Source of the DNA: Candidatus Omnitrophota bacterium
GTDB taxonomy: Bacteria; Omnitrophota; Gorgyraeia; Gygaellales; Profunditerraquicolaceae
Direction: 5' to 3'
Assembly (NCBI GenBank): GCA_023247825.1
Contig: JAHFFR010000001.1
Span: 23,009 to 87,008, forward strand
Length of the DNA stretch: 64,000 nt
Notes under the pieces: generated by a model
The model's input: only the letters and a program-made list of their open reading frames with translations
The model's database searches: none
Told to the model about the DNA's origin: nothing
Program-made: the position numbers and the translations under genes
Shown: piece by piece, positions 13,898 to 59,474 of the stretch
Layout of the letters: every line of letters starts with the position of its first letter
Position numbering within the stretch: the stretch's first letter is position 1

Positions 13898-13928
13898 AAA
13901 TGTTGTTTAGGTTTATTTAATTTCTAAA

Positions 13929-14126: not shown

Positions 14127-14233
14127 GCTGTCGAGGCATTTTTCCGCTGCCAGCGCTTTCCTATATCGCTACCTATACCAAGAATACCAAGAATAAAAAC
14201 ATTTTTTGTGACTGTCTTCTTTCCGACCATATT

Positions 14234-16779: not shown

Positions 16780-16790
16780 TTTATCGGTTA

Positions 16791-27382: not shown

Positions 27383-28633
27383 CTATGATTCTTTGCCCGC
27401 CTTTACAACTTCCAGATTAGGCAGCGGAAAAACCAAGCTGAATCGCCTGTACCTCTCTTGCGCTAAGAAGAACTTCCTGAAATGCCAGGGTAAAACAATA
27501 AGATAATCCGGCTTCCCGGCAAGCAATTCGTCCTCCGGGATGATTGGTATCCACGACCCCGGGGTATAACACCCATATTTCTCGACGTTGATCTCGCCAA
27601 TAAACGGCACATCTTTGCCTGTTAAACCGCAATATTGTAACAGTACATTTCCTTTTGTAGAGGCTCCGAGCGCCGCCACCGTTTTGCCTTCAGAACGAAC
27701 GGCTTTGAGAAACTTAAGCAAATCATTTTTTGCTTTTTCCGCTGTTTTGGCGAAATCCTGATAAGGCTTAAGCCCACTTAAGCCTCTCTCTTGTTCCAAA
27801 GAAAGAATTTTTTGTACTGAAGGGGCGATAGTTAAATCGTCATTTGCCTTTGAAACCATAACCGAAAAACTGCCTCCATTAACATCGTTAAACTCAACAT
27901 CTATAATTCGCAAGCCCACCTTATCCGCCATCCATTTAATCTGGCGCAGAGCATAGAATTCAAGATGTTCATGACAGACGGTGTCGTAGGAATTAGCCTC
28001 AAGCATAGCCGGCATATAGCTTTGTTCAAAAACCCAAACCCCGTTGTCTGCGAGCACATCATACACTTGCCTCATAAAATCTATTGGGTCTTCCAAATCG
28101 TAGAACATAGAGAACGAAGTTATTATTTTCGCCTTTTGCCCGGGAAAACGTTCTTTTAACAATGTGGAAGAAAATAATTCCGGGATCAATTGAATGTGCG
28201 GAGGATAATAGTTATGAAATTTGGCACCTGTGGGATCGATTCCGACAAGCATTAAACCGGAAGGCGGATAGGCCCGCAGTGTAGTGCTGTCATTGCTGCC
28301 GATATCGATAACGAGATCGCCTTTACGCAATTCGACCTGCCCAAGGATTTTTTTTACCTTGCCATGCAAATGTTCCACCATGCTCGCGTTAAGTCCGGAG
28401 CGATAGCCATAGTTTTCGCTGTACATCTCCCCCAAATCGTAGGAATGCTCAAGCTGCAACAGTCCGCAAACCTCATCGCCCCCCATGCATTTTACAAGAC
28501 ACAGAGGCCCAATCGTAACCTTCGTTCCTTTTTCACACGGGAATACGCCGGTCAACATCTGCTCTCCCAAATCGAGCACTCGCTCCAAATTCGCATTATT
28601 GCATATCCTGCATTTATCGACTTTTCTATACAT
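27383..28633 (-). CDS. TylC3-type NDP-hexose C-methyltransferase. The likely true start is the internal Met (MYRKVDKC...), forming a TAATG junction with the upstream gene
   Basis: Zn-ribbon CRICNN...C, motif I VIDIGSNDSTTL, and a C-MTase C-terminal domain. The annotated ORF 27383..28705 carries a 24-codon N-terminal extension that overlaps the upstream gene. Confidence 0.75.
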   Translation of the reverse strand: MYRKVDKCRICNNANLERVLDLGEQMLTGVFPCEKGTKVTIGPLCLVKCMGGDEVCGLLQLEHSYDLGEMYSENYGYRSGLNASMVEHLHGKVKKILGQVELRKGDLVIDIGSNDSTTLRAYPPSGLMLVGIDPTGAKFHNYYPPHIQLIPELFSSTLLKERFPGQKAKIITSFSMFYDLEDPIDFMRQVYDVLADNGVWVFEQSYMPAMLEANSYDTVCHEHLEFYALRQIKWMADKVGLRIIDVEFNDVNGGSFSVMVSKANDDLTIAPSVQKILSLEQERGLSGLKPYQDFAKTAEKAKNDLLKFLKAVRSEGKTVAALGASTKGNVLLQYCGLTGKDVPFIGEINVEKYGCYTPGSWIPIIPEDELLAGKPDYLIVLPWHFRKFFLAQERYRRFSLVFPLPNLEVVKAGKES

Positions 28634-29589
28634 TATCTTAATTTCTGAAGTTCGGCATCCACCATCATCTTCACCATCTCGTCGAATTTTACCTCTGGCG
28701 CCCAATCCAGCTGCTTTATCGTCTTCTCTGGATTTCCCACCAGTTCTACCGGCTCAGCCGGACGGTACGCATTAGCGTCTTCCCGCACGTAATCGCGATA
28801 ATCCAAACCCAGATGCTTAAAAGCGATCTCACACAGATCCCTTACCGAATGAGTCTTACCGGTAGCCACCACATAATCTTCCGCATGCGGCTGCTGCAGC
28901 ATAAGCCACATAGCCCGCACATAATCCCCCGCAAATCCCCAATCCCTTCGCGCATCAAGATTACCAAGACGAAGCTCATTGGCCAGCCCCAGCTTGATCT
29001 TCGCTGACTGATAGGCGATCTTTCTCGTAACGAAATTTAATCCACGGCGCGGGCTCTCGTGATTAAACAAGATTGCCGAACACACAAACAGCCCGTAATA
29101 CTGACGGTAAATTCGAATCATTGAGTGCGCATAAAGTTTGGCAGCGCCATAGGGACTGCGCGGCTTAAATGGCGTTTCTACCGACTGCGGACTTCCAACT
29201 GCATCGCCAAACATTTCGCTGCTCGACGCCTGACAGAAATGAATACCGGAATCGACCTCGCTGATCGCCTTCAGCATGCGCGCGACTGCGAGCCCATTTA
29301 TCTCACCGATTCCAACAGGGTCATCGAACATACCTTCCCCAGATGAACAAGCTGCATAGTTGTATACTTCTACAGGCTTATTGCGCAAAAAAATATCCAC
29401 TATCTCTTTCTGATCCAACATGTCCCACTCAATCAACTCAACCCTGCTCATAAGTGAAGCAGACATGTTATCAGAAGTTTTATGTACATCCCTCACGGTA
29501 CCAACAACACGATATCCCTTAGCAAGCAAAAGCTCTGCCAGATACGAACCATCCTGACCGGCAATACCGGTGACTAAAGCCGTCTTCAT
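28633..29589 (-). CDS. Short Gmd-family enzyme (GDP-4-keto-6-deoxy-sugar reductase, Rmd/DmhB-like, or dehydratase)
   Basis: MKTALVTGIAGQDGSYLAELLLAKGY, YGAAK and FNHESPRRG motifs. At 318 aa it is shorter than a canonical Gmd. Confidence 0.75.
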   Translation of the reverse strand: MKTALVTGIAGQDGSYLAELLLAKGYRVVGTVRDVHKTSDNMSASLMSRVELIEWDMLDQKEIVDIFLRNKPVEVYNYAACSSGEGMFDDPVGIGEINGLAVARMLKAISEVDSGIHFCQASSSEMFGDAVGSPQSVETPFKPRSPYGAAKLYAHSMIRIYRQYYGLFVCSAILFNHESPRRGLNFVTRKIAYQSAKIKLGLANELRLGNLDARRDWGFAGDYVRAMWLMLQQPHAEDYVVATGKTHSVRDLCEIAFKHLGLDYRDYVREDANAYRPAEPVELVGNPEKTIKQLDWAPEVKFDEMVKMMVDAELQKLR

Positions 29590-29624
29590 CGGTTATCAGC
29601 CCTCCGGCATAAGTTTATCTTTCA

Positions 29625-30722
29625 TTAAGCAAAAAAACTTTCATATAACGAATAGTGTTCATCCGCGATTTGCTGCCATTCATCCCGATCAATATCAGCA
29701 TCATATCCACGCCGTGTCCCCGCATACACTGCAAGAGCCGACTTCATCTCTTGGATATCATCAACTTTCGCAAAGTAGATATTACGTTTTTTATCATAAC
29801 CATTTTGGGTCATCGATGTCGTTATTACAAACGCCCCATTCAATACCGCCCCATGGATTGAGCTGTTCCATTCGCCTCCGCCGTCGCGGAAAGGCAGGAT
29901 CACGGCATCCGTTACTGCCAGTAACGCCGCAGCATCGGCAGCGGAAAGAAAACCGGTGACCGTCATTTTTTCTATCCATGGCTCAGTAGAAGCGCGCTGG
30001 GCTATCTTACGGAAATAATCCCCTTTTTCATCAACCTCCCCGGCTATGATGATCTGGTCTGTGGCAGATTCGGCAATATCAAATAAAAATTCTACCCCCT
30101 TATGGGGATATACGAAACCAAAGAAAACGATCAACCGTTTCTGTTTTCTTAAATATTGTTTTTTTAACATCTCCTTTTCATGCTCTCCCAGATCAACGCG
30201 GGGAACACACGATGCGTTTCGTATGAGTAGAACTTTTTTTCCCCATAAAGCCCACCGCAGCAAAGGATGCAGGATCCTTTCTCTATATTGAGGACGAACA
30301 ACCACCAATTTACCGGGAATAATAGATATCAAAAAAAGCATCGGCGCGTTTCGCCTGCTGTATCCTTCGTGCCAGGTCTGCACAACTTTTTTTCTCATCA
30401 GAAAGGAGACAATCGGCAACAACCACGGCAACAGTCCATCTCCATAACCTTGCGTCGGATATTGTATATGCACAATATCGGGTAACCATTGCCGGATGGT
30501 CTTTACGATCTTCAACACTTCAACAAAATTCCACTTTTTTACAACAGGAAAAATTTCGACCCCGTCAGCATTATCAACCTTTGCTTTGGCAATACTTGTA
30601 AGCACGCCAACGCGAATACCCCTATCAATAGCAAGCGCTTTCGCCAAGCTATAACTATAGTCGCCAATCCCGCATCTCATCGGCGGATAGGAACCTGTGA
30701 TTAACAATACCCGTATAATCAT
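29625..30722 (-). CDS. Glycosyltransferase family 4
   Basis: Starts MIIRVLLITGSYPPMRCGIGDYS. Shows the C-terminal GT-B pattern. 365 aa. Confidence 0.75.
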   Translation of the reverse strand: MIIRVLLITGSYPPMRCGIGDYSYSLAKALAIDRGIRVGVLTSIAKAKVDNADGVEIFPVVKKWNFVEVLKIVKTIRQWLPDIVHIQYPTQGYGDGLLPWLLPIVSFLMRKKVVQTWHEGYSRRNAPMLFLISIIPGKLVVVRPQYRERILHPLLRWALWGKKVLLIRNASCVPRVDLGEHEKEMLKKQYLRKQKRLIVFFGFVYPHKGVEFLFDIAESATDQIIIAGEVDEKGDYFRKIAQRASTEPWIEKMTVTGFLSAADAAALLAVTDAVILPFRDGGGEWNSSIHGAVLNGAFVITTSMTQNGYDKKRNIYFAKVDDIQEMKSALAVYAGTRRGYDADIDRDEWQQIADEHYSLYESFFA

Positions 30723-31627
30723 ACAGACTTTCTAAGCGCCAACCATGCGAAGGTATATTGCTTTCCCCAAAAATTAATCGGTTTATTTTTACCGTCATAC
30801 ATCATCTCACCTACGGGAAATAAGCTATATCCTGCTGCTTCAGCAATAAACCCGATAATTTCATCTCTGGAAAAAATCTTCCAATCCATTCCAAAAAAAT
30901 CGATGCCTGCTGTATTGATCTTCTCCGACCAGTAATCGAACGACGCTATAAAGTAGCCGCCCGGCTTTAAAAGGCGCGACATCTCTTTCAGCAACGAATG
31001 ACCGCAAAAACCATGCTCAATTACGGAGATCGCTGTAATCGCCTGGAAGGATGCGTCGTTAAACTTTGTGCGCATAAAATCAGCGACTACATACCGTATA
31101 AAATCTTGATGCGGCATTTCCCGCAGATTTGGATTCAAGTCCACCCCGGTTAAATTTGAATAGCCCAATGCATGCAACGCTACAATCATTTCAGAAGCAT
31201 AAGAACCAATATCAAGTATAGGTTCCTTCCTTTGTACGTACCTCTCAAGAAAATTCAAGGTAGAAAGCACATCCCAGCTCTTTAACATATCTCCTATCGC
31301 CATTCCGCGCGTAAAGCCTGATCTTCTCATTAAAGAGCATAAAGGAGATTCGACAAAAGAGATCCCCCTTTTTACCATCTCTTGACGAGACTTACTTATT
31401 TGTAATTTATTCTGCAAAACTTTCATGGCCATTGTATTTAAAAAGCATATCCTGATACTCAAAACCAACCCGTCATCTCCAACTGCAGTGACTTTGGGGG
31501 TTTTAGCATGTACCACAAAATTCATATCCTTAATTATTTTTAAAAGTCCATCGCAACTCGACCCATTAGACTCAAGCCATCCGGAGTTAAACTCGCACAT
31601 AAGGTATTTAACATGCCTCTTTTGCAA
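30719..31627 (-). CDS. Class I SAM-dependent methyltransferase (Methyltransf_11-like). The annotated start overlaps the upstream gene by 88 bp; the true start is probably an internal Met
   Basis: LDIGSYASEM...VDLNP motifs. 302 aa as drawn. Confidence 0.6.
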   Translation of the reverse strand: MQKRHVKYLMCEFNSGWLESNGSSCDGLLKIIKDMNFVVHAKTPKVTAVGDDGLVLSIRICFLNTMAMKVLQNKLQISKSRQEMVKRGISFVESPLCSLMRRSGFTRGMAIGDMLKSWDVLSTLNFLERYVQRKEPILDIGSYASEMIVALHALGYSNLTGVDLNPNLREMPHQDFIRYVVADFMRTKFNDASFQAITAISVIEHGFCGHSLLKEMSRLLKPGGYFIASFDYWSEKINTAGIDFFGMDWKIFSRDEIIGFIAEAAGYSLFPVGEMMYDGKNKPINFWGKQYTFAWLALRKSV

Positions 31628-32232
31628 ATATTTAGATATACCTCGAAAAACATTCGGCTCAAAACTTCAACATCTACTTTCATGAGATTAATTACAGACA
31701 GAGATTGCACGGACGGATGTGAATCTAAGCGGCAAACCTGGACATTAACCGGAATTAATGATTTGTTGCTTGGAACCAAAGACGGAGAATGTAAATGAGC
31801 CTGATTTGGCAGGTGCAGATCCAGCCACTCTTCTTTATCCCCGGCCGCGCATTGAAAAGCATCAACATGGGTGATACGATTGCTCTTAAGGACAGTAACA
31901 AGTTTTTTGTACGCATATGGACTTGGCTCAAATGCCAGTACATGCCCCTTACTACCAACCAAACTCGCTGCCAGAGTTGTATAATACTCAACGTTTGCAC
32001 CCACATCCAAAAAATTACCGCCTGGTTTAAGTATTTCCTTAACCCAGCGGGATTGGACAGGTTCATATCTGCCAAGATATATTTGCCTTTGTATGGATTC
32101 GCCAACATCAAACTCCATCCGATAGCCGTTACATAACCCGTAGATTGATTTCGGCCTTAATCGGACGAAGAACAATAAAACGCTCTGTGGAAATTTCTGG
32201 AAAAGCTTCTGGAAAAATATATACATATTCAT
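31540..32232 (-). CDS. FkbM-family methyltransferase
   Basis: FLDVGANVEYYT...LAFEPSP, typical of Methyltransf_21. 230 aa. Confidence 0.65.
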   Translation of the reverse strand: MNMYIFFQKLFQKFPQSVLLFFVRLRPKSIYGLCNGYRMEFDVGESIQRQIYLGRYEPVQSRWVKEILKPGGNFLDVGANVEYYTTLAASLVGSKGHVLAFEPSPYAYKKLVTVLKSNRITHVDAFQCAAGDKEEWLDLHLPNQAHLHSPSLVPSNKSLIPVNVQVCRLDSHPSVQSLSVINLMKVDVEVLSRMFFEVYLNICKRGMLNTLCASLTPDGLSLMGRVAMDF

Positions 32233-32260
32233 TCGTACACCTTGCTATGTATTCACTTTT

Positions 32261-33349
32261 TTATAGCCCCTTATCATGTTTTTTGATCAGTTCCTGCTGT
32301 TTGGCATTTTTTAAATCATGGTGTATCATTTCAGCAACAAGTTCACGAAAGCCGGTCTTAGGAACCCATCCCAGTATGGCCTTTGCCTTGCTCGCATCGC
32401 CAAGGAGCGATTCAACTTCTGTTGACCGGAAATAGCGATGATCCACAGCGATAATATTACAGCCTTCTTGGGTATAGCCCTTTTCGTCTAGCCCATCCCC
32501 TTTCCACGTTAATTGAATACCGAGTTCGGCTGCCGCCAATTCAACGAATTCGCGCACACTGTGTTGTTCTCCGGTAGCAATCACAAGGTCTTGCGGCTCC
32601 GGCTGCTGCAGCATTAGCCATTGCGCCTCAACGTAATCTCTGGCGTGGCCCCAGTCACGTTTTGCGTTCAGATTACCCAGATATAGACACTCCTGTAAAC
32701 CAAGCTTGATACGAGTCAACGCCTGAGTAATCTTGCGACTAACAAAGAGTTCGCCTCGTATCGGAGATTCGTGGTTAAACAAGATACCGTTACAGGCGAA
32801 TATACCGTACGCTTCACGATAGTTAATCGTAATCCAATAGGCGTAAAGTTTCGCTACTGCATATGGCGAGCGGGGATAAAATGCGGTTGTTTCCTTCTGA
32901 GGAAATTCTTGCGCAAGACCAAAAAGCTCGGAAGTAGAAGCCTGGTAATAGCGCGTTTTTTTCTCAAGCCCAAGTATCCGTATCGCCTCAAGTACTCGTA
33001 AAGCCCCTAAAGCATCAGAATTAGCGGTATATTCGGGTTCTTCAAATGACACAGCAACGTGGCTCTGCGCCGCCAGGTTATATATTTCATCGGGTTGCGT
33101 CTGATGTATAATCCTGATAAGGCTGGATGAATCAGTCATGTCACCATGATGAAGAAAAAGACGGACATTTTTTTCATGAATATCGTGCAAAAGATGATCT
33201 ATCCGGCCAGTATTAAAAAGAGAGGTGCGCCTTCTTATACCATGAACTATATAACCTTTATCCAAAAGAAATTCAGCAAGATATGCCCCATCTTGACCTG
33301 TAATACCTGTAATTAAAGCAACCTTTGGTTTTGTCATCATTTTCTCCAT
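32261..33349 (-). CDS. gmd: GDP-mannose-type 4,6-dehydratase
   Basis: [40 protein letters not shown] and FNHESPIRG motifs. 362 aa. Confidence 0.85.
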
Positions 33350-33352
33350 AAG

Positions 33353-34252
33353 CTAACCACCGTGCACAACACGCCTAAGCTTTTTATAGATAACCGCTGG
33401 CAGAAATAATTTAACGAGATGTCCCGCTCCCCTACGTACTAAGTAATACAAATAAGTAGCCATGGCTTTGGTTTTCGGCAATCCATATTGTCTCAATAAC
33501 CTTAAATGTTCTTTCATGCTCTGAACAAGGTAACTTTCTCCAATGCCCCCGACTCCTCTATGAATCATAAGAGAACTGTTGTAAAAACCATTTCCACCGT
33601 TTAGATATAACCTCAAGAACCATTCATAGTCTGCGACAAATTTATATGTCATATCCATTAACCCCACTCTTTGGAAACATTCTCTTTTTATTACCATAGT
33701 TGGAAAATTACAACGCGGGTATCCGGATATTAGTGATTTCGCATAGTTTTTTTCACCTTTGCATATCGCGACTTGATCTCCATTCTTGTACATCACCATA
33801 TCTCCAAAAACAAAATCAGCACCTGACTCCAAAAGCGATCCGACTGCCATTCCAATAAAATCAGGATCAATCCAGTCATCTGACGACAACCAGAATATAA
33901 AGTCGCCTTTGGACATACTTACTGCTTTATTAAATGCATCGGATGTCCCGCAATCCGGCTCACTAATCCACAAATCGATTTTATCGTTAAATTTTTTGAT
34001 TACCTCTAAAGTGCCATCTGTAGATGCACCATCAACAACAATGTATTCGATGTTCGGATAGCTTTGATTCAATACAGACATTATTGTCTGCGGCAATGTT
34101 TCCTTCCGGTTCCATACGATTGTTATAACGGTTATAAGAGGCCGCTCCGGATCGCCTTGCCGTTTGCTAGCCGAACGACCCCCTATCTGACGAAGAAGAT
34201 GGGCAGTCTTCTTTAAATAATCGTCAATAGTAGGAACATTCTTCACTATCAT
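33353..34252 (-). CDS. Glycosyltransferase family 2
   Basis: ITVITIVWNRKETLPQTIMSVLNQSYPNIEYIVVDGASTDGT. 299 aa. Confidence 0.8.
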   Translation of the reverse strand: MIVKNVPTIDDYLKKTAHLLRQIGGRSASKRQGDPERPLITVITIVWNRKETLPQTIMSVLNQSYPNIEYIVVDGASTDGTLEVIKKFNDKIDLWISEPDCGTSDAFNKAVSMSKGDFIFWLSSDDWIDPDFIGMAVGSLLESGADFVFGDMVMYKNGDQVAICKGEKNYAKSLISGYPRCNFPTMVIKRECFQRVGLMDMTYKFVADYEWFLRLYLNGGNGFYNSSLMIHRGVGGIGESYLVQSMKEHLRLLRQYGLPKTKAMATYLYYLVRRGAGHLVKLFLPAVIYKKLRRVVHGG

Positions 34253-35616
34253 AATTTAAATATTCTATTCGAAATATAATAATTATATAAGCAATTGTGG
34301 ATTTTCTTGAAGAACTTATTAGGCGGAACGACTTTTATCAACCAGATAGCTATCTTATTAAGAGGAAAATGGAGTTTTGCAATCAACGCTCCAAGTAAAT
34401 ATATATTATACCGTATATCTTTTTCCTTTTCAGTAAAACACGGCATAGTGGGCCTTAAACTGCATCCGGTCATATCACCCTGATGCGAAGATGGATCAAT
34501 CAAACCCCTTTCCGCACAATACAGATATAGCTCAGTTCCTTTCATAGGCACGGTTATTGAATAGCTTGGATAGGCCACTTTCCCCTTTCTACACAACCCG
34601 ATTGTATCTAAATCATCTTGTAATGTGGATTCTGGGGCAGCGAGCATAAAATTGACCCAAGTGTTAATTCCGTGGTCTCTTATCATTTTCAATTTTTCCG
34701 CTATATCCACCTTTCTCATCTGTCTTTTCAAGATTTTCTCCCGGACATACTCCGAGGTGCTATCCACAGAAAGATGGACGGAAAAACAACCGGCCTTCTT
34801 AAGTAATTTTAATAGGCCGTCATCGACCAGATCAAATCTTAAATAACAGTTGAAGGGAACACCGATTCGTTTCAAATATTTGTCGGTAAATTCATCGAGC
34901 CAGGCATCGGCTTTCATAGCAAATAGATCATCGCCAAATTTAACAAAATCCATGCGGTATTTACTTTTTACCGACTCAATCTCCTGTATAAGCCTTTCTA
35001 CAGAAAATCGCCTCACTATGGGCCCTTTACCCTTATAGAGTTCATTGTAGTAATTATTGCAACAATAGGCGCACCTGTAGGGGCATCCACGAGTAGCATA
35101 AAAAGTTTTTTTAGGTACATTTTTAAGGAAGGAATTTGAAATTACCAGATCCCTGTCAGCAGTAGGTAATTCATCCAGATTTTTGATTAACGGTCTTACG
35201 GCATTCTTCTTATCTTTAGTGATTAAATTGGGTACCTCATCGAATGATTTGCCGCTCTCAACTTTAGTCAAGAAATCCTTGAACGCATATTCACCCTCCC
35301 CCACGCAATAAGCATTCATCTCACTCTGATCAAAGGTTTCAGGCGAAAATGTAGCCTGGGGGCCTCCCATAATCGAAACAAAACGGTGCTTTTGTTTTGC
35401 CTTTTTGTGATTCTCAACAATCTGCTTGAATCCCACTATGTTAGCGGAATAAGCAATAACATCGGGCTTTATCCTGCTTACTTCTCCCAGGAAGTCGTTG
35501 TCCTTTAGAGTGCAAAAATACGTAGAATGAGCCATATTTTTAGCTATTGCGGATAAATAAGCGATAGCAATATGGTCGGCAAAATCCAATTGAGATATTG
35601 AAAATAAAATCTTCAA
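34249..35616 (-). CDS. Cobalamin-binding radical SAM enzyme (class B), second copy
   Basis: B12-binding-like N-terminus plus RGCPYRCAYCCNN. 455 aa. Confidence 0.8.
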   Translation of the reverse strand: MKILFSISQLDFADHIAIAYLSAIAKNMAHSTYFCTLKDNDFLGEVSRIKPDVIAYSANIVGFKQIVENHKKAKQKHRFVSIMGGPQATFSPETFDQSEMNAYCVGEGEYAFKDFLTKVESGKSFDEVPNLITKDKKNAVRPLIKNLDELPTADRDLVISNSFLKNVPKKTFYATRGCPYRCAYCCNNYYNELYKGKGPIVRRFSVERLIQEIESVKSKYRMDFVKFGDDLFAMKADAWLDEFTDKYLKRIGVPFNCYLRFDLVDDGLLKLLKKAGCFSVHLSVDSTSEYVREKILKRQMRKVDIAEKLKMIRDHGINTWVNFMLAAPESTLQDDLDTIGLCRKGKVAYPSYSITVPMKGTELYLYCAERGLIDPSSHQGDMTGCSLRPTMPCFTEKEKDIRYNIYLLGALIAKLHFPLNKIAIWLIKVVPPNKFFKKIHNCLYNYYISNRIFKL

Positions 35617-35619
35617 TGA

Positions 35620-36501
35620 TTATGGTTTCCCTTTAAGCCACAGTGCTATCCTTTTGACATACTTAAGATACATAGATGGTTTTCTGATCCCTCGATTTAT
35701 CCTTCTAAAAATTAACCTATATCTTTCCATACTGTTCTCTATTTTTTCAATAAATATATTACCCTTGCCACGCCAACGTCCTCGTGGCCCCTGGGATGCC
35801 TTAAGGATTTCTACGTCAGAAAACGACTCAACCGGTATTGGTCTCCTTGATTGAACTTTTCCGTTGATTGTCCATAGACTTTCAAGCAACCCCCTATCAT
35901 GTTCCCAAAACTCATTGCATAAATTACTACTGGCGCTTTTATTTCTATCTTCATTTATGTATACATCACTCATCACAACTCTGCCTCCTGCTTCGTAGGC
36001 TCTCATTGTTAGATCTAAAGACCACATAACAGCTATAAAATTCTTGTCTATTCCACCTATATCACGATAAAACTTCTTTGACATTAGACCGCAAATCGGC
36101 ATCAAAGGAGTGTTCTCATCTCCGGCGAAGAAACGATGCGCAAAATGAGATTGATCTTCGCCATTCGTCATTATCTTTGACGACACAATTATTTTATCGG
36201 AATTACATAATTTGTAAATGGCATAAAGTTTATCCAGAGGCTGCGGGGTATTAAATTCACAGTCATCAGCTATATCCATCATAAGATCGGCAGTAGTATT
36301 CCTCACCGCTATCTCGACACACTGCGTTGGCTTTACAAACGACCTAATGAAACGAAAATTCTTTGGCAGTTCATAATCGGGTGGATTGGGCCCTACGAAG
36401 ACCAACTCAAATTCAACATCATTATCACCGATGCTCTTGTATAAAGCCATCCAATTCTGCGGCCTGTGAGCAGAAGCAACAATTCCAATCCTAGGACTCA
36501 T
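35620..36501 (-). CDS. Hypothetical protein, putative GT-A-fold glycosyltransferase (tandem paralogue A)
   Basis: DIADDCEF (DxD-like) and YRDIGGIDKNF (GGxD.xF-like) motifs. It has a near-identical 5' DNA tract with the next gene. Confidence 0.4.
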   Translation of the reverse strand: MSPRIGIVASAHRPQNWMALYKSIGDNDVEFELVFVGPNPPDYELPKNFRFIRSFVKPTQCVEIAVRNTTADLMMDIADDCEFNTPQPLDKLYAIYKLCNSDKIIVSSKIMTNGEDQSHFAHRFFAGDENTPLMPICGLMSKKFYRDIGGIDKNFIAVMWSLDLTMRAYEAGGRVVMSDVYINEDRNKSASSNLCNEFWEHDRGLLESLWTINGKVQSRRPIPVESFSDVEILKASQGPRGRWRGKGNIFIEKIENSMERYRLIFRRINRGIRKPSMYLKYVKRIALWLKGKP

Positions 36502-37364
36502 GGATTACCTCTTTTAGCCATTATTTTTGCGGCCATTCTCTTTGCATAATTAAGATACATAGATGGTTTTCTAATGCCACGCATTACCCTGGGAAGATTG
36601 GTTTCTATTTTTTCAAAAAGTATAAAACCATTGCCGCGCCATCGCCCTCGAGGCCCCTGAGATGCCTTGAGTATATTTATGTCAGAAAAAGGTTCCACCG
36701 GTTTCATTCGACAAAAATGAACCTTCCCGTTCTTTGTCCACAGACTATCAAGCAGTCCTCTATCGTGCTCCCAAAACTCAGTACATAAACTACTTCCTGC
36801 CCTTTTACTTTTATCCTCATTGAGGTATACATCGCTTATTACAACTTTGCCCCCTAAGGCGTAAACTCTCATGGCGATGTCTAAATCCCCAAAAATAGCT
36901 TGAAAATTCCTATCTATACCCCCAATATCACGATAAAGCTTTCTTGACATCAAAGCAGCTAACGGCACTATCGGCGAACTAGAATCGGAAAAGTGATGCG
37001 CCGAAGAGGATAGGTCTATGCCGTCCATCATATACCTGCATGACAATATTATTTTGTCATTGTTATAGCTTTTATATGTTTGGTAAAGCCTGCCCAGCGG
37101 TCTGGACCCCTGAAATTCGCAATCATCAGTAAAATTAAGCATTATAAGATCGGCAGTAGTATTCCTCACCGCTATCTCTAAACACTGCTGTGGTTTTACT
37201 ATCGATCTGATAAAACGAAAATTCTTTGGCAGCTCATAATCGGGCGGATTGGGCCCTACGAAGACCAACTCAAATTCAACATCATTATCACCGATGCTCT
37301 TGTATAAAGCCATCCAATTCTGCGGCCTGTGTGCGGATGAACAAATAGCTATTTTCGGATCCAT
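36498..37364 (-). CDS. Hypothetical protein, putative GT-A-fold glycosyltransferase (tandem paralogue B)
   Basis: A paralogue of 35620..36501. Residues ~11-48 are encoded by a DNA tract >98% identical to the paralogue; the rest has diverged. Confidence 0.4.
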   Translation of the reverse strand: MDPKIAICSSAHRPQNWMALYKSIGDNDVEFELVFVGPNPPDYELPKNFRFIRSIVKPQQCLEIAVRNTTADLIMLNFTDDCEFQGSRPLGRLYQTYKSYNNDKIILSCRYMMDGIDLSSSAHHFSDSSSPIVPLAALMSRKLYRDIGGIDRNFQAIFGDLDIAMRVYALGGKVVISDVYLNEDKSKRAGSSLCTEFWEHDRGLLDSLWTKNGKVHFCRMKPVEPFSDINILKASQGPRGRWRGNGFILFEKIETNLPRVMRGIRKPSMYLNYAKRMAAKIMAKRGNP

Positions 37365-37400: not shown

Positions 37401-38399
37401 CTAATAAAAATCCTGTGTTGAATACATAATCACCTGGCTTCCCAGTTTTTCAAAAGAAAAAGGGACATAGAGGATCTTACTTAATTTCTCCTTTATTTTA
37501 GGCTGAACTTGCGGCTCAGCGAACATAAGAATAAATCCTCCGCCTCCGGCGCCTAATAGTTTCCCCCCAAGCGCTCCAGCCCTGCGCGCAGTTTCATAAA
37601 TAGCGTCGATTTGGCTAGTAGAAATCATCTGAGTAAGGCTACGCTTAATTTGCCAGGATTCGTGCAGCAATTTACCAAAATCCCGAATATCGCAAGAATT
37701 ATCATTGAGGATGTCTACTGCCTTATCTACCATTCCCTGCATACTCTGCAATTGGCTCTTCAACGCCGGGGTCTTCTTAATCTGTTCTCCCGCAATATCC
37801 GAAGCATTTCGGGAAAACCCAGTAAAGAACAACATTAAGTAACTCTGCAATAACTCAATTTTTTCTTTGGGAATAGTTATAGGATGAACATAGAATTCAT
37901 CTTCGCCGCCGAACTCAATTTTATTTAGGCCGCCAAAGGTAACAGCCACCTGATCCTGGGCGCCGACGTTTTCTTTGATCAAATTATGCTCCACGTTAAT
38001 TGCATCACGCGCTAATTGCCGCTTGGTTACCATTCTACCCTTAAGAGCGTTTAAAGCATGTAAAAAACCTACGGTAAAAGCTGAGCTTGAACCAACTCCG
38101 GATCGGGCCGGGATATCGCTGGAATGGACCATCTCAATCCCATGTTCAATATTTATAAATTTTAAACATTCCCGCACGGAGGGATGCTTAATCTGAGAGA
38201 TATCCTGCGTTTCTTCGCGTTCAACATAACGAATACGATACTTATGGTCAAAAAAAGGAGGAAGATACCGACAATTAATATAACAGTACTTGTTAATCGT
38301 GGTACTCAGGACGGCTCCGCCATTTTCCTTATACCAGAGAGGATAATCTGTTCCTCCCCCAAAGAAAGAAATCCTTAACGGGGTACGCGTAATAATCAT
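37401..38399 (-). CDS. GHMP-family sugar kinase, D-glycero-D-manno-heptose 7-phosphate kinase (HddA)-like
   Basis: PLRISFFGGGTD and PARSGVGSSSAF motifs. 332 aa. Confidence 0.7.
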   Translation of the reverse strand: MIITRTPLRISFFGGGTDYPLWYKENGGAVLSTTINKYCYINCRYLPPFFDHKYRIRYVEREETQDISQIKHPSVRECLKFINIEHGIEMVHSSDIPARSGVGSSSAFTVGFLHALNALKGRMVTKRQLARDAINVEHNLIKENVGAQDQVAVTFGGLNKIEFGGEDEFYVHPITIPKEKIELLQSYLMLFFTGFSRNASDIAGEQIKKTPALKSQLQSMQGMVDKAVDILNDNSCDIRDFGKLLHESWQIKRSLTQMISTSQIDAIYETARRAGALGGKLLGAGGGGFILMFAEPQVQPKIKEKLSKILYVPFSFEKLGSQVIMYSTQDFY

Positions 38400-39394
38400 G
38401 CCTTTTCCTTCTTATCTTTACTCTCAGGCAAATAAACCTGCTTATACCAAGAGATTGTTTTAGCTATGCCGTCATAAATATCGGTTTTGGGGGTGAACCC
38501 AAGCAACTCTTGAGCTTTTTTGATGTCAATTAAGCGCATCGGAATCATTGAAGGCTTGCTTGAGTCATAGGTTATTTTGGCATTCTTGTATCCTTCAATC
38601 TCAAGAGCCATCCGCAGAATTTCTTTTAAACTATAGGCTTTGCCGCAAGCGATATTCACCGCATCAAAAGTAGAAAGTTTTTCCGCAGCCAAAATCAAAC
38701 CATCTATAAAATCATCAATGTAGATTAAATCTCTGATGTCCTGGCCCGTACCCCAAATTTTAATCGGATCATGCCGCTCAATTACCTTCCTTAAGGTAGC
38801 CGCCATCATATGAGAAGTGGCAAAATCAAAATCATCGTATGGGCCATAGATATTAGACGGCCGCACCACTACGGCAGCCATAGGGTTTTTAAGCTTCTGA
38901 GAATACAGACGACAGAGAATCTCAGTAAACCTCTTCATCCATCCCACACCAAAATAAATATCATACGGATCAGCATCAAACATTTCTTTCTCAGTTACCG
39001 GCTTATCCCCGCTAGGAGGATAAGCGGCATTACTGCTCAGAAAAATAAACTTTTTTATCTGCGCAAAATAAGCAGCTTCCAGTATCTGGGAATTCATAAT
39101 GATATTCGAAGTAACATGCACCAACGGGGTCGAAGCAATCACCGCCGCTCCCGACGTGTTTGCGGCACACATAAGAACATAATCCATACCCGCAACAGTC
39201 TTCCTGCAATCTTCCATGCTCATCAAATCACACCTGATATATTCAATCCGATCATCAATAATCACCGGTTCTCTTTTATGAATAGTGGCTCGGACATTAG
39301 CTCCCAACGAAAGAAGCCTGTTTACCAAGTTTGACCCTATAAAACCAGCTCCCCCCGCAACTAAAACCTTTTTAGTATTAAAAAAACTTGTCAT
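38396..39394 (-). CDS. GDP-L-fucose-synthase (Fcl/WcaG)-like NDP-4-keto-sugar epimerase/reductase, copy 1
   Basis: VLVAGGAGFIGSNL motif. An Fcl-like extended SDR of 332 aa. Confidence 0.7.
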   Translation of the reverse strand: MTSFFNTKKVLVAGGAGFIGSNLVNRLLSLGANVRATIHKREPVIIDDRIEYIRCDLMSMEDCRKTVAGMDYVLMCAANTSGAAVIASTPLVHVTSNIIMNSQILEAAYFAQIKKFIFLSSNAAYPPSGDKPVTEKEMFDADPYDIYFGVGWMKRFTEILCRLYSQKLKNPMAAVVVRPSNIYGPYDDFDFATSHMMAATLRKVIERHDPIKIWGTGQDIRDLIYIDDFIDGLILAAEKLSTFDAVNIACGKAYSLKEILRMALEIEGYKNAKITYDSSKPSMIPMRLIDIKKAQELLGFTPKTDIYDGIAKTISWYKQVYLPESKDKKEKA

Positions 39395-39433
39395 TATGCA
39401 GTTCTCCGTAATTCTATTAGTAAAGGCTTGATA

Positions 39434-40300
39434 TTAATTTAATACGTCCTCGATTATCTTAAAATGTTCATATGTCTGCTTGCTGGCAGCATCATGCCAT
39501 TCAAACACAATAGGGACATTACTAAAAATCTTTCTATACTTCATTAAATATTTTATTTGCCAAGAATCAACTGGCAGCACTCTGTGTGAATCTATATGAC
39601 CGTTATTCTCAGAGAGATGAAAGGCAAATATCTTTTTGCCGTAGTTATCGACGATTCTATCCAGGAATAAATCTCTATCAAAACGTAATATCTGCGAAGC
39701 CACATTCAAATGCCCAAGGTCAAGTAGAAGTCCCACTCTTTCATTATTTCTAAAATAAATTAAAAACTGCTCTACATCATCACTGCCACACAAAAACGAA
39801 AATTTATCATTTGCTGTTTTAAGCCCTAAATTCTCTACCCCTATCCTAAAATTTATCGGAATAACTTCTTCTGATAAAGACTCCACTGCCTTATAAAAAT
39901 CTTCTTTTAAATTAATTGTCCTGCCGTCCTTTATAAAAAACTTATCTTTAAGCTCTGGCAGCAATTCGCTTATAAATCCTGGATGCATGGTATATAAATT
40001 TTTGCCGAATTTCCGTGCAAACCTTAAAGCTTCTTTCACTAGAGCTATTGTCCTCTTTTTAATATCGAATTTGCGCGAGGCAATATTTATAACAAAATCT
40101 TTTTTCGGTGGTGGAAAATAATTATGAATCAAATAATCCAGCTTATACTCTTTCTGCAAGCTGATCAAATCGCTCTCAAAGTTATTATAAAATATAGTGC
40201 CTCCGGTGAGTTCTATATTCTTAAATCCTAACTCTGCTAATTGGCAAACCGCATTACCGATCTTATTCTTTTTAGAACACAAAGACGATATATAGAGCAT
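39434..40300 (-). CDS. Xylose-isomerase-like TIM-barrel sugar(-phosphate) isomerase/epimerase (tentative)
   Basis: 288 aa. I see no signature strong enough for a firm call. Confidence 0.4.
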   Translation of the reverse strand: MLYISSLCSKKNKIGNAVCQLAELGFKNIELTGGTIFYNNFESDLISLQKEYKLDYLIHNYFPPPKKDFVINIASRKFDIKKRTIALVKEALRFARKFGKNLYTMHPGFISELLPELKDKFFIKDGRTINLKEDFYKAVESLSEEVIPINFRIGVENLGLKTANDKFSFLCGSDDVEQFLIYFRNNERVGLLLDLGHLNVASQILRFDRDLFLDRIVDNYGKKIFAFHLSENNGHIDSHRVLPVDSWQIKYLMKYRKIFSNVPIVFEWHDAASKQTYEHFKIIEDVLN

Positions 40301-40314
40301 AAAAGTTTAAACTT

Positions 40315-40830: not shown

Positions 40831-40847
40831 GATACCCCCCGTTATAA

Positions 40848-41831: not shown

Positions 41832-41834
41832 TTA

Positions 41835-47646: not shown

Positions 47647-47647
47647 G

Positions 47648-50740: not shown

Positions 50741-50746
50741 TTTCTA

Positions 50747-53596: not shown

Positions 53597-53598
53597 TA

Positions 53599-58439: not shown

Positions 58440-58441
58440 CT

Positions 58442-58946: not shown

Positions 58947-58982
58947 GATGAAATTCAGGATTCCCCCCCCAGAATAAGTATA

Positions 58983-59459: not shown

Positions 59460-59474
59460 GGAAAACTTGATGTC

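What the first reader, a model, noticed from the sequence alone, without database searches (positions are those of the whole stretch)
27383..35616. Dense methylation/radical toolkit upstream of an ABC exporter whose ATPase has a terminus-binding C-domain
Two class-B (cobalamin) radical SAM enzymes sit at 14234-15724 and 34249-35616. Two TylC3-type C-methyltransferases sit at 12695-13897 and 27383-28633. There are FkbM, TylF-like and four other class I methyltransferases. In ABC-dependent O-antigen systems such as E. coli O9a and Klebsiella O12, the Wzt C-terminal domain recognises a methyl or phosphomethyl cap that terminates chain growth. That is established knowledge. The 435-aa Wzt here has such an extension. 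Some of the methyltransferases may therefore build a chain-terminating cap, while the B12-rSAM enzymes methylate unactivated sugar carbons as GenK does.
Basis: partly seen in the sequence, partly recalled or inferred. Interest (0 to 1): 0.55.

Follow-up and report, generated by a model that had tools for sequence, protein, structure and literature searches.

The report
Rare-sugar glycan cluster with cap-reading exporter
This is a real, very large surface-polysaccharide gene cluster from an uncultured (Omnitrophota-like) bacterium. Its ABC exporter does carry a glycan-end-binding domain, but comparison with related loci suggests the methyl and radical enzymes mostly build rare sugars, and that the end signal comes from a different gene cassette next to the exporter.

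Summary
Region 27383-35616 and its surroundings encode two B12-binding radical SAM enzymes, two TylC3/TcaB9-type sugar C-methyltransferases, FkbM-, TylF- and class I methyltransferases, and Wzm/Wzt.

The Wzt C-terminal domain models confidently (pLDDT 93). Its 17 best PDB matches are all Wzt carbohydrate-binding domains: A. aeolicus, E. coli O9a and the O12 type.

- No WbdD-like terminator was found: no protein-kinase domain and no coiled coil.
- The finding region is a portable block, 60-87% identical in two other MAGs. In one of them it pairs with a Wzt whose C-domain is only about 16% identical.
- In 11 of 11 informative loci with CBD at least 42% identical, and in one Patescibacteria locus (32%, same F[ST]SLSD motif), wzt is followed by a split transketolase, one or two SDRs, usually a 311-aa methyltransferase, and often a rare glycosyltransferase. 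That cassette is the better candidate for the recognised chain end.
- The radical SAM at 34249-35616 has 56-85% orthologues across phyla. They sit inside a conserved GDP-sugar (heptose-type) operon, so it probably acts on a nucleotide sugar. Its chemistry is unassigned.
- The second radical SAM and C-methyltransferase lie in a separate Wzx/Wzy-like part.
- FkbM is frameshifted.

The parts
27383..28705 (-). Sugar 3-C-methyltransferase, TylC3/TcaB9/MtmC type (probable start 28633)
   Evidence: Pfam Methyltransf_13+23+14. Full-length match to 4RV9 (E=1.8e-51) and to TcaB9. Orthologues are 81% identical in L013 and 70% in L014.
28633..29589 (-). Second GDP-mannose 4,6-dehydratase (short, P. aeruginosa type)
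   Evidence: Pfam GDP_Man_Dehyd 352 bits. 1RPN E=8e-99 against Rmd 2PK3 E=4e-28. 42% identical to 32261-33349.
29625..30722 (-). GT4-family glycosyltransferase
   Evidence: Weak Pfam Glyco_transf_4 / Glycos_transf_1 hits. Conserved at 73% in L013 and 63% in L014.
30719..31627 (-). Class I methyltransferase (Methyltransf_11). The true start is probably near 31430; the 5' part of the ORF is the displaced C-terminus of FkbM.
   Evidence: Pfam. Orthologues in L013 and L014 are 237-240 aa.
31540..32232 (-). FkbM-family methyltransferase, frameshifted by a 1-nt deletion at about 31665
   Evidence: Pfam Methyltransf_21 covers only profile positions 1-122 of 173. The intact 59%-identical orthologue in L014 continues in the other frame.
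32261..33349 (-). GDP-mannose 4,6-dehydratase (Gmd)
   Evidence: Pfam GDP_Man_Dehyd 491 bits. 87% identical in L013 and 85% in L014.
33353..34252 (-). GT2-family glycosyltransferase, overlapping the rSAM stop codon by 4 nt
   Evidence: Pfam Glycos_transf_2. 71% identical in L013 and 62% in L014.
34249..35616 (-). B12-binding-domain radical SAM enzyme (rSAM2) of an uncharacterised orthologous family
   Evidence: Pfam B12-binding + Radical_SAM. CPYRCAYC motif at residue 178. No NCBIfam equivalog; the best solved relative is AprD4. Orthologues at 56-85% identity occur in 11 genomes of several phyla, embedded in a GDP-sugar operon.
35620..37364 (-). Two paralogous 288/293-aa proteins (65% identical to each other) without a Pfam family. 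They may be GT-A-like.
   Evidence: Conserved next to rSAM2 in L013 and L014.
37401..45571 (-). Block C, a GDP-sugar (heptose-type) tailoring operon. It holds an HddA-like kinase, Fcl-like SDRs, a xylose-isomerase-like TIM protein, an RmlC-like epimerase, a short-chain SDR, a 328-aa methyltransferase and an E1 alpha/beta ThDP pair.
   Evidence: Pfam and NCBIfam. These genes are the conserved neighbours of rSAM2 orthologues across phyla.
46312..49036 (-). Two paralogous Glyco_trans_1_2 proteins (444 and 462 aa; 68% identical) from a rare family linked to wzt and the transketolase cassette
49041..49757 (-). TylF-family O-methyltransferase, present in this lineage only
   Evidence: Pfam TylF. Absent from L001, L005-L008 and L033.
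49805..54360 (-). Cassette A: split transketolase (N and C subunits), two SDRs (one Fcl-like) and a 311-aa class I methyltransferase of an un-named family
   Evidence: Pfam/NCBIfam. AF2 model with pLDDT 94.5 and methyltransferase-fold neighbours. The transketolase pair and first SDR follow wzt in every locus with the window-type CBD; the second SDR and the methyltransferase in most. The cassette also occurs without wzt in L011 and L012.
54375..55682 (-). Wzt ATPase with a C-terminal carbohydrate-binding domain (about residues 270-435)
   Evidence: NBD matches A. aeolicus Wzt at E=1e-62. CBD model pLDDT 93. The top 17 Foldseek hits are all Wzt CBDs.
55660..56499 (-). Wzm ABC-2 permease
   Evidence: Pfam ABC2_membrane.
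56501..58263 (-). Gmd-like 4,6-dehydratase and HddC/ManC-like guanylyltransferase, the entry steps for GDP-sugars
   Evidence: The dehydratase is about 80% identical in L017, L019 and L023, next to rSAM2 orthologues.
12695..15724 (-). Second C-methyltransferase (12695-13897) and second B12-rSAM (14234-15724), lying in the Wzx/Wzy-like part of the window
   Evidence: Pfam. They are only 25% and 23% identical to their counterparts. Neighbours are an E1 alpha/beta pair, a second transketolase pair, a Wzx-like protein (7049-8419) and a Wzy_C-like protein (25075-26319).

Best explanation
The window is one minus-strand surface-glycan (O-antigen-like) super-cluster of about 57 kb from an Omnitrophota-like MAG. 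It is assembled from portable modules.

The finding region (block B, 27383-37364) is one such module. Its inferred steps are:
- It makes GDP-4-keto-6-deoxymannose with two Gmd enzymes.
- It C-methylates that intermediate at the nucleotide-sugar stage with the TylC3/TcaB9-type enzyme.
- It transfers the products with a GT2, a GT4 and possibly two GT-A-like proteins.
- It O-methylates residues with the Methyltransf_11 enzyme, and with FkbM if that gene is intact.

The radical SAM at 34249-35616 belongs functionally with the adjacent GDP-heptose-type operon (block C). It modifies a nucleotide sugar; C-methylation is the most likely chemistry but is unproven.

The finished polyprenol-linked chain is exported by Wzm/Wzt, whose C-terminal jelly-roll domain binds the non-reducing terminus. 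The terminal structure read by this CBD subfamily is most likely specified by the wzt-adjacent cassette and not by the block B methyltransferases. That cassette is a split transketolase, SDRs and a 311-aa methyltransferase, attached by the rare Glyco_trans_1_2 protein.

Shown: gene identities, the CBD fold and the synteny patterns. Inferred: substrates, order of steps and the identity of the cap.
For: - CBD fold: model pLDDT 93; 8DKY E=3.9e-9, 2R5O E=1.4e-8, 5HNO E=2.8e-7; TM-scores (normalised to the query) 0.63-0.75.
- The C-MT is a full-length homologue of NDP-sugar 3-C-MTs and lies adjacent to Gmd.
- Block B is conserved at 60-87% identity in L013 and L014, and follows wzm-wzt in L013.
- The L013 Wzt has an NBD about 65% identical (63% by BLASTP; 67% by local alignment) but a CBD only about 16% identical. 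It is followed by an FkbM gene and not by the transketolase cassette.
- The window-type CBD (42-80% identical, motif F[ST]SLSD) is followed by TK-N/TK-C/SDR in L001, L005, L006, L007, L008, L010, L029, L030, L031 and L032, and in Patescibacteria L033.
- L009 has an NBD 71% identical but lacks both the motif and the cassette.
- rSAM2 orthologues co-occur with window genes 37401-45571 and 56501-58263 in Desulfobacterota, Planctomycetota and Chloroflexota.
- NCBIfam places those genes nearest HddA, HddC, Gmd, Fcl and RmlC.
- E1 alpha/beta pairs are known to add two-carbon branches to NDP-keto sugars (PMC4802897).
Against: - wzt and the cassette are adjacent, so co-inheritance alone could produce the co-variation.
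- Most loci are metagenomic and of unknown phylogenetic independence.
- The cassette also occurs without Wzt (L011 with a Wzx-type flippase; L012), so it is not intrinsically a capping device.
- The L009 CBD is 34% identical to the window's, with a higher alignment score than L033, yet it has no cassette.
- No glycan structure, no binding data and no enzyme assay exist for any of these proteins.
- The fetched loci cover only about 10 kb on each side, so methyltransferases further away were not seen.
- Lineage-specific methyltransferases such as TylF at 49041-49757 could still cap the chain.
Confidence: 0.5

Rival explanations
1. One or more methyltransferases of 27383-35616 (Methyltransf_11, FkbM) put a terminal O-methyl cap on the chain, as in A. 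aeolicus, E. coli O8 or P. aeruginosa CPA, and this Wzt CBD reads that cap.
For: - The CBD's best structural match is the A. aeolicus CBD bound to 3-O-methyl-mannose.
- That organism's O antigen is a D-rhamnan/mannan capped by 3-O-methyl sugars (PMC9445017).
- Block B carries two Gmd genes and two O-MT-type genes.
- Block B sits right behind wzm-wzt in L013.
Against: - The same block is paired in L013 with a CBD only 16% identical to the window's.
- No orthologue of the block B methyltransferases was seen within about 10 kb of wzt in any locus with the window-type CBD.
- FkbM is frameshifted here.
- Fold similarity says nothing about ligand, since sequence identity to the solved CBDs is 9-14%.
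Confidence: 0.15
2. The TylF-family O-methyltransferase at 49041-49757 supplies the methyl cap. It lies between the cassette methyltransferase and the Glyco_trans_1_2 genes, close to wzt.
For: - Its position is four genes downstream of wzt.
- The TylF family methylates sugar hydroxyls after glycosyl transfer (Pfam PF05711).
Against: It is absent from L001 and L006, whose CBDs are about 80% identical to the window's, and from every other CBD-clade locus. It therefore cannot be required for recognition by this CBD type.
Confidence: 0.1
3. The B12-domain radical SAM enzymes are not methylases. They would catalyse dehydration or deoxygenation (as AprD4 does) or a carbon-skeleton rearrangement on the sugar.
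For: - The closest solved relative of both is AprD4, E=7e-14 and E=2e-24.
- No methylase equivalog is reached; the KedN5-type C-methylase model scores only 45-78 bits against a cut-off of 700.
- The pathways lack the classical E1/E3-type 3-deoxygenation enzymes.
- Each block already holds ordinary methyltransferases.
Against: - From general knowledge of the family, most characterised class B rSAM enzymes are methylases.
- The AprD4 match covers only the radical SAM core.
- Both proteins retain a B12-binding-domain signature.
Confidence: 0.3
4. The glycan is not an LPS O antigen. It would be a protein- or lipid-linked glycan, or a capsule or S-layer glycan, and the Wzy_C-family protein would act as an oligosaccharyltransferase or ligase for another acceptor.
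For: - The wzm-wzt-cassette unit also occurs in Patescibacteria, which lack LPS.
- The initiating enzyme is a small PglC-type phosphoglycosyl transferase.
- The Wzy_C family includes O-oligosaccharyltransferases (general knowledge).
Against: The closest named relatives are Omnitrophota MAGs. That these are diderms is general knowledge and was not tested here. Nothing in the window discriminates between the acceptors.
Confidence: 0.25

Closest known systems
WzmWzt O-antigen ABC transporters with a Wzt carbohydrate-binding domain (A. aeolicus 8DKU/8DKY; E. coli O9a 2R5O; R. terrigena / K. pneumoniae O12 5HNO)
   Same: - Adjacent Wzm ABC-2 permease and Wzt ATPase.
- NBD strongly similar to A. aeolicus Wzt (E=1e-62).
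- C-terminal jelly-roll domain of the same fold (TM-score 0.63-0.75).
- Location inside a glycan cluster.
   Different: - CBD sequence identity to all solved CBDs is 9-14%.
- The domain is below the Pfam Wzt_C cut-off.
- It forms a small subfamily with its own F[ST]SLSD motif: 85 representatives at E<=1e-3.
- The ligand is unknown.
- The conserved partner is a transketolase/SDR/methyltransferase cassette plus a Glyco_trans_1_2 protein. It is not WbdD or WbbB.
WbdD (E. coli O9a/O8) and WbbB (O12) chain terminators
   Same: SAM-dependent methyltransferases are encoded near wzt, and the pathway logic could be the same (terminate, then export).
   Different: - No protein-kinase domain.
- No coiled-coil ruler.
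- No GT99 Kdo-transferase.
- The wzt-linked 311-aa methyltransferase resembles small-molecule and sugar methyltransferases (SibL, RedM, DnrK, RebM). It is about 55% identical across phyla, which is typical of a precursor-level enzyme.
GenK/GenD1-type cobalamin-dependent radical SAM sugar C-methylases (gentamicin)
   Same: An N-terminal B12-binding domain plus a radical SAM core with CxxxCxxC, encoded among sugar-tailoring genes.
   Different: - No close sequence relationship to any characterised methylase was demonstrated.
- The context is a GDP-sugar operon for a cell-surface glycan, not an aminoglycoside pathway.
- The nearest solved structure is the dehydratase AprD4.
Campylobacter jejuni capsule GDP-heptose modification pathways (HddA/HddC/GmhA, 4,6-dehydratase, cupin C3/C5 epimerases, Fcl-like C4 reductases; PMC10680097, PMC7949155)
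   Same: The same enzyme families occur together: an HddA-like kinase, an HddC-like guanylyltransferase, a GmhA-like SIS protein, a Gmd-like dehydratase, an RmlC-like epimerase and Fcl-like reductases.
   Different: - All scores are below the equivalog cut-offs.
- The operon additionally carries ThDP E1 alpha/beta or transketolase pairs, an un-named methyltransferase family and a B12-rSAM.
- None of these extra components is part of the C. jejuni pathways.
Two-carbon branched-chain deoxysugar pathways of antibiotics (Plm8/Plm9 paulomycose; AviB1/AviB2 eurekanate)
   Same: Pyruvate-dehydrogenase-like E1 alpha/beta pairs are encoded among NDP-sugar dehydratase, epimerase, reductase and methyltransferase genes (PMC4802897).
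   Different: - Here they lie in a surface-glycan cluster.
- The chemistry is GDP-type, not dTDP-type.
- They are duplicated, and are accompanied by two split transketolases.

Membership tests
Wzt with C-terminal carbohydrate-binding domain (Wzt_C, PF14524 type) | Wzt-type ABC nucleotide-binding domain encoded next to a Wzm ABC-2 permease | tested here: met
   ABC_tran and ABC2_membrane. 6AMX/8DKU E=1e-62 over residues 66-268.
Wzt with C-terminal carbohydrate-binding domain (Wzt_C, PF14524 type) | C-terminal beta-sandwich (jelly-roll) domain structurally matching solved Wzt CBDs | tested here: met
   AF2 pLDDT 93. Foldseek ranks 1-17 are all Wzt CBDs, E=4e-9 to 2e-6. Pfam Wzt_C scores only 25.0 bits against a cut-off of 30.4.
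Wzt with C-terminal carbohydrate-binding domain (Wzt_C, PF14524 type) | Binds a specific non-reducing terminal modification and is required for export | not testable with these tools
   This needs ITC or pull-down with the native glycan, and genetics.
WbdD-like chain terminator | Protein-kinase-like domain fused to a methyltransferase (O9a type) | tested here: not met
   No kinase domain other than the GHMP and PfkB sugar kinases was found in any of 63 ORFs.
WbdD-like chain terminator | Extended C-terminal coiled coil acting as a molecular ruler | tested here: not met
   A crude composition scan found no coil-like stretch of 42 aa in any protein. The 311-aa methyltransferase model is compact and globular. 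The scan is crude, so this is a weak negative.
WbdD-like chain terminator | Sequence or fold similarity to WbdD | tested here: not met
   phmmer against the PDB at E<=10 gave no WbdD hit for 49805-50740. No WbdD entry appears in the top 50 fold matches.
Class B (cobalamin-dependent) radical SAM methylase, GenK-like | N-terminal B12-binding domain plus radical SAM core with CxxxCxxC | tested here: met
   Pfam PF02310 + PF04055. CPYRCAYC and CPYRCIFC motifs.
Class B (cobalamin-dependent) radical SAM methylase, GenK-like | Orthology or close similarity to a characterised sugar C-methylase | tested here: not met
   No NCBIfam model comes near its cut-off (best 84 and 170 bits against cut-offs of 577-750). 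The best PDB relative is AprD4. The GenK sequence itself was not available for comparison.
Class B (cobalamin-dependent) radical SAM methylase, GenK-like | Methyl transfer to an unactivated sugar carbon | not testable with these tools
   This requires an enzyme assay.
TylC3/TcaB9-type NDP-sugar 3-C-methyltransferase | Three-domain architecture (zinc-binding N-domain, class I methyltransferase domain, C-terminal domain) with full-length homology to solved members | tested here: met
   27383-28705 has all three Pfam domains and matches 4RV9 over residues 27-418 at E=1.8e-51. For 12695-13897 the C-terminal domain is weak (E=6e-4).
TylC3/TcaB9-type NDP-sugar 3-C-methyltransferase | Acts on an NDP-4-keto-6-deoxyhexose | not testable with these tools
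   This is inferred only from adjacency to two Gmd genes.
FkbM-family methyltransferase | Intact full-length FkbM domain | tested here: not met
   The Pfam match stops at profile position 122 of 173. A 1-nt deletion at about 31665 relative to the L014 orthologue shifts the frame. This could be an assembly error.

The most novel reading that the evidence does not exclude
A distinct Wzt-CBD subfamily (motif F[ST]SLSD) is conserved from Omnitrophota to Patescibacteria. It would read a new kind of chain terminator. That terminator would not be a methyl, phosphomethyl or Kdo cap. It would be a rare GDP-derived sugar built by a split transketolase, SDRs and an un-named methyltransferase family, and attached by a rare Glyco_trans_1_2 transferase. 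In parallel, an uncharacterised family of B12-domain radical SAM enzymes would carry out C-H chemistry on GDP-heptose-type nucleotide sugars for surface glycans. That family occurs across at least five phyla and in the cultured Trichlorobacter thiogenes.
Probability: 0.25. Interest if true: 0.7.

Novelty: new variant of a known kind. Interest (0 to 1): 0.5.

Why it matters
ABC-transporter-dependent glycan export with a cap-reading Wzt domain is well understood for only three cap chemistries: methyl, phosphomethyl and Kdo.

This locus and its relatives offer a natural swap experiment. The same sugar-building block is paired with different CBDs, and the same CBD type is paired with one conserved cassette. 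That points to a possible fourth terminator type.

The locus also shows that B12-domain radical SAM enzymes and ThDP-dependent carbon-carbon bond-forming enzymes are recurrent, conserved parts of nucleotide-sugar pathways in poorly studied phyla. One cultured entry point, Trichlorobacter thiogenes, makes their chemistry testable.

If instead the enzymes do ordinary things, this is simply an unusually large and mosaic O-antigen-type cluster.

Tried and rejected
- **Rmd hypothesis for 28633-29589.** Rejected. It is a P. aeruginosa-type Gmd (1RPN E=8e-99 against Rmd E=4e-28).
- **WbdD-like terminator.** Searched for by Pfam on all ORFs, by PDB sequence search of the wzt-linked methyltransferase and the Glyco_trans_1_2 protein (only chance-level hits), by fold search and by a crude coiled-coil scan. 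None was found.
- **Source contig.** Exact look-up of the 425-aa Wzt (P0001) gave no record. The 435-aa form retrieved only the same assembly. The organism is inferred from the nearest named relatives (Omnitrophica/Omnitrophota MAGs).
- **Literature.** Searches for cobalamin-dependent radical SAM enzymes in polysaccharide or O-antigen clusters, and for transketolases in O-antigen clusters, returned only gentamicin and unrelated papers.
- **Strict form of the cassette hypothesis** ('cassette A is intrinsically a capping module'). Weakened, because the cassette also occurs with a Wzx-type flippase and without Wzt.
- **Per-cent CBD identity as a predictor.** It does not separate L033 (32%, cassette present) from L009 (34%, cassette absent). 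Only the motif does.

Full report
**What the window is**

About 63 ORFs, nearly all on the minus strand, run from 63.9 kb down to 0.9 kb at roughly 40% GC. Pfam and NCBIfam scans of every sizeable ORF show a single giant glycan-biosynthesis cluster.
- Nucleotide-sugar enzymes: many SDR dehydratases, epimerases and reductases, three Gmd-like dehydratases, an RmlC-like epimerase, a DegT aminotransferase, GmhA/HddA/HddC/HldE-like heptose enzymes.
- At least nine glycosyltransferases.
- Ten methyltransferase-type genes.
- Two B12-domain radical SAM genes.
- Four two-subunit ThDP enzymes: two split transketolases and two E1 alpha/beta pairs.
- Wzm/Wzt, a Wzx-like 11-TM protein (7049-8419), a Wzy_C-family membrane protein (25075-26319) and a small PglC-type initiating transferase (909-1472).

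The identical Wzt protein occurs on an NCBI contig of 89,762 bp. The nearest named relatives of several genes are Candidatus Omnitrophica/Omnitrophota MAGs.

**Observation check**

The C-methyltransferase at 27383-28705 is a full-length homologue of mycarose 3-C-methyltransferase (4RV9, E=1.8e-51) and of TcaB9. Both radical SAM proteins have B12-binding and Radical_SAM domains and intact CxxxCxxC motifs. The two weakly scoring 311/328-aa 'methyltransferases' are paralogues (40% identical) with a YEFGCGTG motif. The 311-aa one models at pLDDT 94.5 as a class I SAM methyltransferase.

Corrections:
- The region lies downstream of the exporter in the direction of transcription.
- 28633-29589 is a second Gmd (1RPN E=8e-99), not an Rmd or Fcl.
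- The FkbM gene has a 1-nt deletion (GAAG[G]TTTT) near 31665 relative to its intact L014 orthologue. The downstream frame runs without a stop codon into the Methyltransf_11 ORF.

**The Wzt C-domain**

The NBD matches A. aeolicus Wzt at E=1e-62, but no solved CBD is found by sequence. An AlphaFold model of residues about 270-435, built on 49 homologues, has pLDDT 93. Foldseek against the PDB returns only Wzt CBDs as ranks 1-17:
- A. aeolicus CBD with 3-O-methyl-mannose (8DKY, E=3.9e-9);
- E. coli O9a (2R5O, E=1.4e-8);
- the Kdo-cap-binding O12 domain (5HNO, E=2.8e-7).

The next hits, NPC2 and RhoGDI-type sandwiches, are clearly weaker. Sequence identity to solved CBDs is only 9-14%, so the ligand cannot be inferred from them. 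In the known systems the CBD binds the cap and is essential for export of capped chains (PMC9445017).

**Is there a WbdD-like terminator?**

No.
- No protein-kinase domain occurs anywhere in the window.
- The wzt-proximal methyltransferase has no PDB sequence relative at E<=10 other than chance hits.
- Its fold neighbours are small-molecule and sugar methyltransferases, not WbdD.
- A crude scan finds no coiled-coil-like segment in any protein.

**Comparative genomics: the exporter side**

I fetched the neighbourhoods of Wzt homologues and ran a metagenome scan with an alignment of the CBD clade only.

In 11 of 11 informative loci whose CBD is 42-80% identical to the window's, wzt is followed by a split transketolase and an SDR, usually also by a second Fcl-like SDR and the 311-aa methyltransferase, and often by a Glyco_trans_1_2 protein. 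The informative loci are the window itself, L001, L005/L027, L006, L007/L026, L008, L010, L029, L030, L031 and L032. The cassette follows wzt either directly or after one gene. L025 and L028 end too early, but they show Glyco_trans_1_2 directly after wzt.

A Patescibacteria contig (L033) has the same order, Wzm-Wzt-Glyco_trans_1_2-TK-N-TK-C-SDR-MT311, with a CBD only 32% identical but carrying the same F[ST]SLSD motif.

In contrast, L009 has an NBD 71% identical and a CBD 34% identical without the motif. It has no cassette, and FkbM/Methyltransf_23 genes and GT4s follow wzt.

The CBD subfamily is small: 85 representatives at E<=1e-3 and 28 at E<=1e-10 among 1.84 billion. This is probably an undercount, because the library is clustered on whole proteins. 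The Glyco_trans_1_2 family is also rare: 46 hits, from Omnitrophota and Patescibacteria.

The five-gene cassette itself is portable. It also occurs with a Wzx-type flippase and three B12-rSAM genes in a Falkowbacteria-like contig (L011), and beside HddC/HddA/GmhA genes in a Veillonellales MAG (L012). The 311-aa methyltransferase family has at least 1,349 members that are about 55% identical across phyla. That pattern is typical of an enzyme with a fixed small-molecule substrate.

**Comparative genomics: the finding region**

A genome scan with the radical SAM at 34249-35616 found orthologues at 56-85% identity over the full length. They occur in Pirellulales/Planctomycetota, Omnitrophota, Desulfobacterota (including cultured Trichlorobacter thiogenes ATCC BAA-34, plus Geobacteraceae and Desulfobacterium) and Chloroflexota.

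Mapping all window proteins onto these loci gave two results.

1. *The finding region is a conserved block.* The 293-aa protein, rSAM, GT2, Gmd, (FkbM), Methyltransf_11, GT4, Gmd2 and C-MT are 60-87% identical and collinear in L013 and L014. In L013 the block lies directly behind wzm-wzt, so the block does work with ABC exporters. However, the L013 Wzt shares 63% identity only across the NBD. Its C-domain is homologous at the fold level (hhalign probability 95%) but only 16% identical. It is followed by a 381-aa FkbM protein, and no transketolase cassette is present. So the same methyltransferase block is found with different CBDs, and the same CBD type is found with the cassette.

2. *rSAM2 keeps company with a sugar operon.* In the Desulfobacterota and Chloroflexota loci, the rSAM2 orthologue's constant neighbours are the orthologues of these window genes:
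   - 40848-41831, an Fcl-like SDR (70-81% identical in 11 of 11 loci);
   - 40315-40830, RmlC-like;
   - 38396-39394, an SDR;
   - 37401-38399, an HddA-like kinase;
   - 57514-58263, an HddC/ManC-like guanylyltransferase;
   - 56501-57514, a Gmd-like dehydratase (about 80% identical);
   - 43575-45571, the E1 alpha/beta pair;
   - 42617-43603, the 328-aa methyltransferase;
   - 41835-42635, an SDR.

This is a complete activate-dehydrate-epimerise-reduce-branch-methylate operon of GDP-heptose type. The enzyme families are those of the C. jejuni capsule heptose pathways (PMC10680097, PMC7949155). E1 alpha/beta pairs are known to add two-carbon branches from pyruvate to NDP-keto sugars (PMC4802897). 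rSAM2 is therefore best read as a nucleotide-sugar tailoring enzyme.

**What the radical SAM enzymes do**

This is unresolved. Neither reaches any NCBIfam equivalog; the best scores are 84 and 170 bits against cut-offs of 577-750. The closest solved relative of both is AprD4, a B12-domain radical SAM diol dehydratase that deoxygenates an aminoglycoside sugar. The methylases TokK, CysS and TsrM match more weakly. Methylation remains the most likely chemistry on general grounds, but 'as GenK does' is an analogy and not a result. Literature searches found no characterised B12-rSAM in a polysaccharide cluster.

**Mosaic structure**

GC content falls from 0.45-0.49 (C-MT, Gmd2) to 0.32-0.37 (GT2, Wzy_C-like, GT4, GT2, DegT) exactly at about 27.4 kb. 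That is where synteny with L013 and L014 ends.

The second rSAM (23% identical to rSAM2) and the second C-MT (25% identical to the first) lie beyond this boundary. Around them are their own E1 alpha/beta and transketolase pairs, GmhA/HldE-like genes, the Wzx-like protein and the Wzy_C-like protein. They may serve a second, Wzx/Wzy-type route or a different part of the glycan. They should not be counted as evidence about the ABC exporter's cap.

**Most likely mechanism**

Steps marked (shown) rest on the analyses above; steps marked (inferred) do not.
1. GDP-mannose and GDP-heptose-type precursors are activated and 4,6-dehydrated (families shown, substrates inferred).
2. They are then C-methylated by the TcaB9-type enzyme, extended or branched by ThDP enzymes, epimerised and reduced, and further modified by rSAM2 and the un-named methyltransferases (inferred).
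3. GT2, GT4 and GT-A-like enzymes build the chain on a polyprenol carrier, started by the PglC-type transferase (inferred).
4. Chain growth ends with addition of a terminal residue. I propose this residue is the cassette A sugar, transferred by Glyco_trans_1_2 (inferred from co-variation; confidence about 0.4).
5. The Wzt CBD binds that terminus and Wzm/Wzt exports the chain (CBD fold shown, function inferred from the A. aeolicus, O9a and O12 paradigms).

**Main caveats**
- Adjacency alone can explain the co-inheritance of wzt and the cassette.
- The loci are mostly metagenomic fragments covering about 10 kb on each side.
- L009 shows that CBD similarity near 33% does not by itself predict the cassette.

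**Verdict**

The system is a new variant of a known kind: ABC-transporter-dependent glycan assembly with a cap-reading Wzt. Its sugar-tailoring enzymes are uncharacterised and its terminator may be new. Interest 0.5.

Noticed in passing
window 31540-32232 and 30719-31627 (shift at about 31665): The FkbM gene has a 1-nt deletion (GAAG[G]TTTT) relative to the intact L014 orthologue. After the shift the reading frame continues without a stop codon into the Methyltransf_11 gene. Restoring the missing base would therefore give a fused FkbM-Methyltransf_11 protein. This could be a real pseudogene or an assembly error.
   Followed up: partly
window 10173-11878, 15724-17762, 43575-45571, 52715-54360: One glycan cluster holds four two-subunit ThDP enzymes: two split transketolases (50% and 40% identical between pairs) and two E1 alpha/beta pairs (42% and 49%). 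This points to repeated carbon-carbon bond formation on sugars. No precedent for the transketolase type in polysaccharide clusters turned up in the literature search.
   Followed up: partly
L017 (Trichlorobacter thiogenes ATCC BAA-34, NZ_FUWR01000001.1, about 128.8-150.2 kb): A cultured bacterium carries a 63%-identical orthologue of rSAM2 together with the SDR, RmlC-like, kinase, guanylyltransferase and 80%-identical dehydratase genes, and a transketolase pair. It is a tractable organism for testing the chemistry.
   Followed up: no
window 45579-46004 and the 300-nt gap up to 46312: A 141-aa ORF equals the C-terminal third of a 4,6-dehydratase and is 50% identical to 56501-57514. It is probably a gene remnant that marks a module junction. 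Similar fragments occur in L001, L006, L017, L019 and L023.
   Followed up: partly
window 58263-60605: The sugar genes are interrupted by an AbiEii toxin fragment (58983-59459), an ORF6N-domain protein (59507-59890), a 720-nt non-coding gap and a 247-aa beta-rich protein with no family (59862-60605). This looks like a mobile or toxin-antitoxin remnant inserted in the cluster.
   Followed up: no
window about 27380: There is a sharp compositional step, with gene GC of 0.45-0.49 above and 0.32-0.37 below. It coincides with the end of synteny to L013 and L014, and is probably a recombination junction between modules.
   Followed up: partly
window 18724-20265: An HldE-like bifunctional protein has the reverse domain order to E. 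coli HldE: the adenylyl/cytidylyltransferase domain is N-terminal (residues 17-156) and the PfkB kinase domain is C-terminal (residues 189-495).
   Followed up: no
window 35620-37364: Tandem paralogues of 293 and 288 aa (65% identical) have no Pfam family and are conserved next to rSAM2 in L013 and L014. A 'DDCEF' motif and a faint Glyco_trans_2_3 hit suggest a GT-A-like fold.
   Followed up: no
L011 (Falkowbacteria-like contig) and L005/L027: Other glycan loci from Patescibacteria and from relatives of the window carry up to three B12-rSAM genes, together with GT10/GT11 fucosyltransferase-family genes and a carbamoyltransferase. B12-rSAM enzymes therefore appear to be recurrent in the surface-glycan clusters of these phyla.
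   Followed up: no
window 1536-4723 and 5806-6987: Three genes of unclear role lie between the Wzx-like gene and the initiating transferase: a PLD-like protein (483 aa), an AAA_14/DUF4143 ATPase (438 aa) and a 393-aa protein with one TM segment and no family.
   Followed up: no
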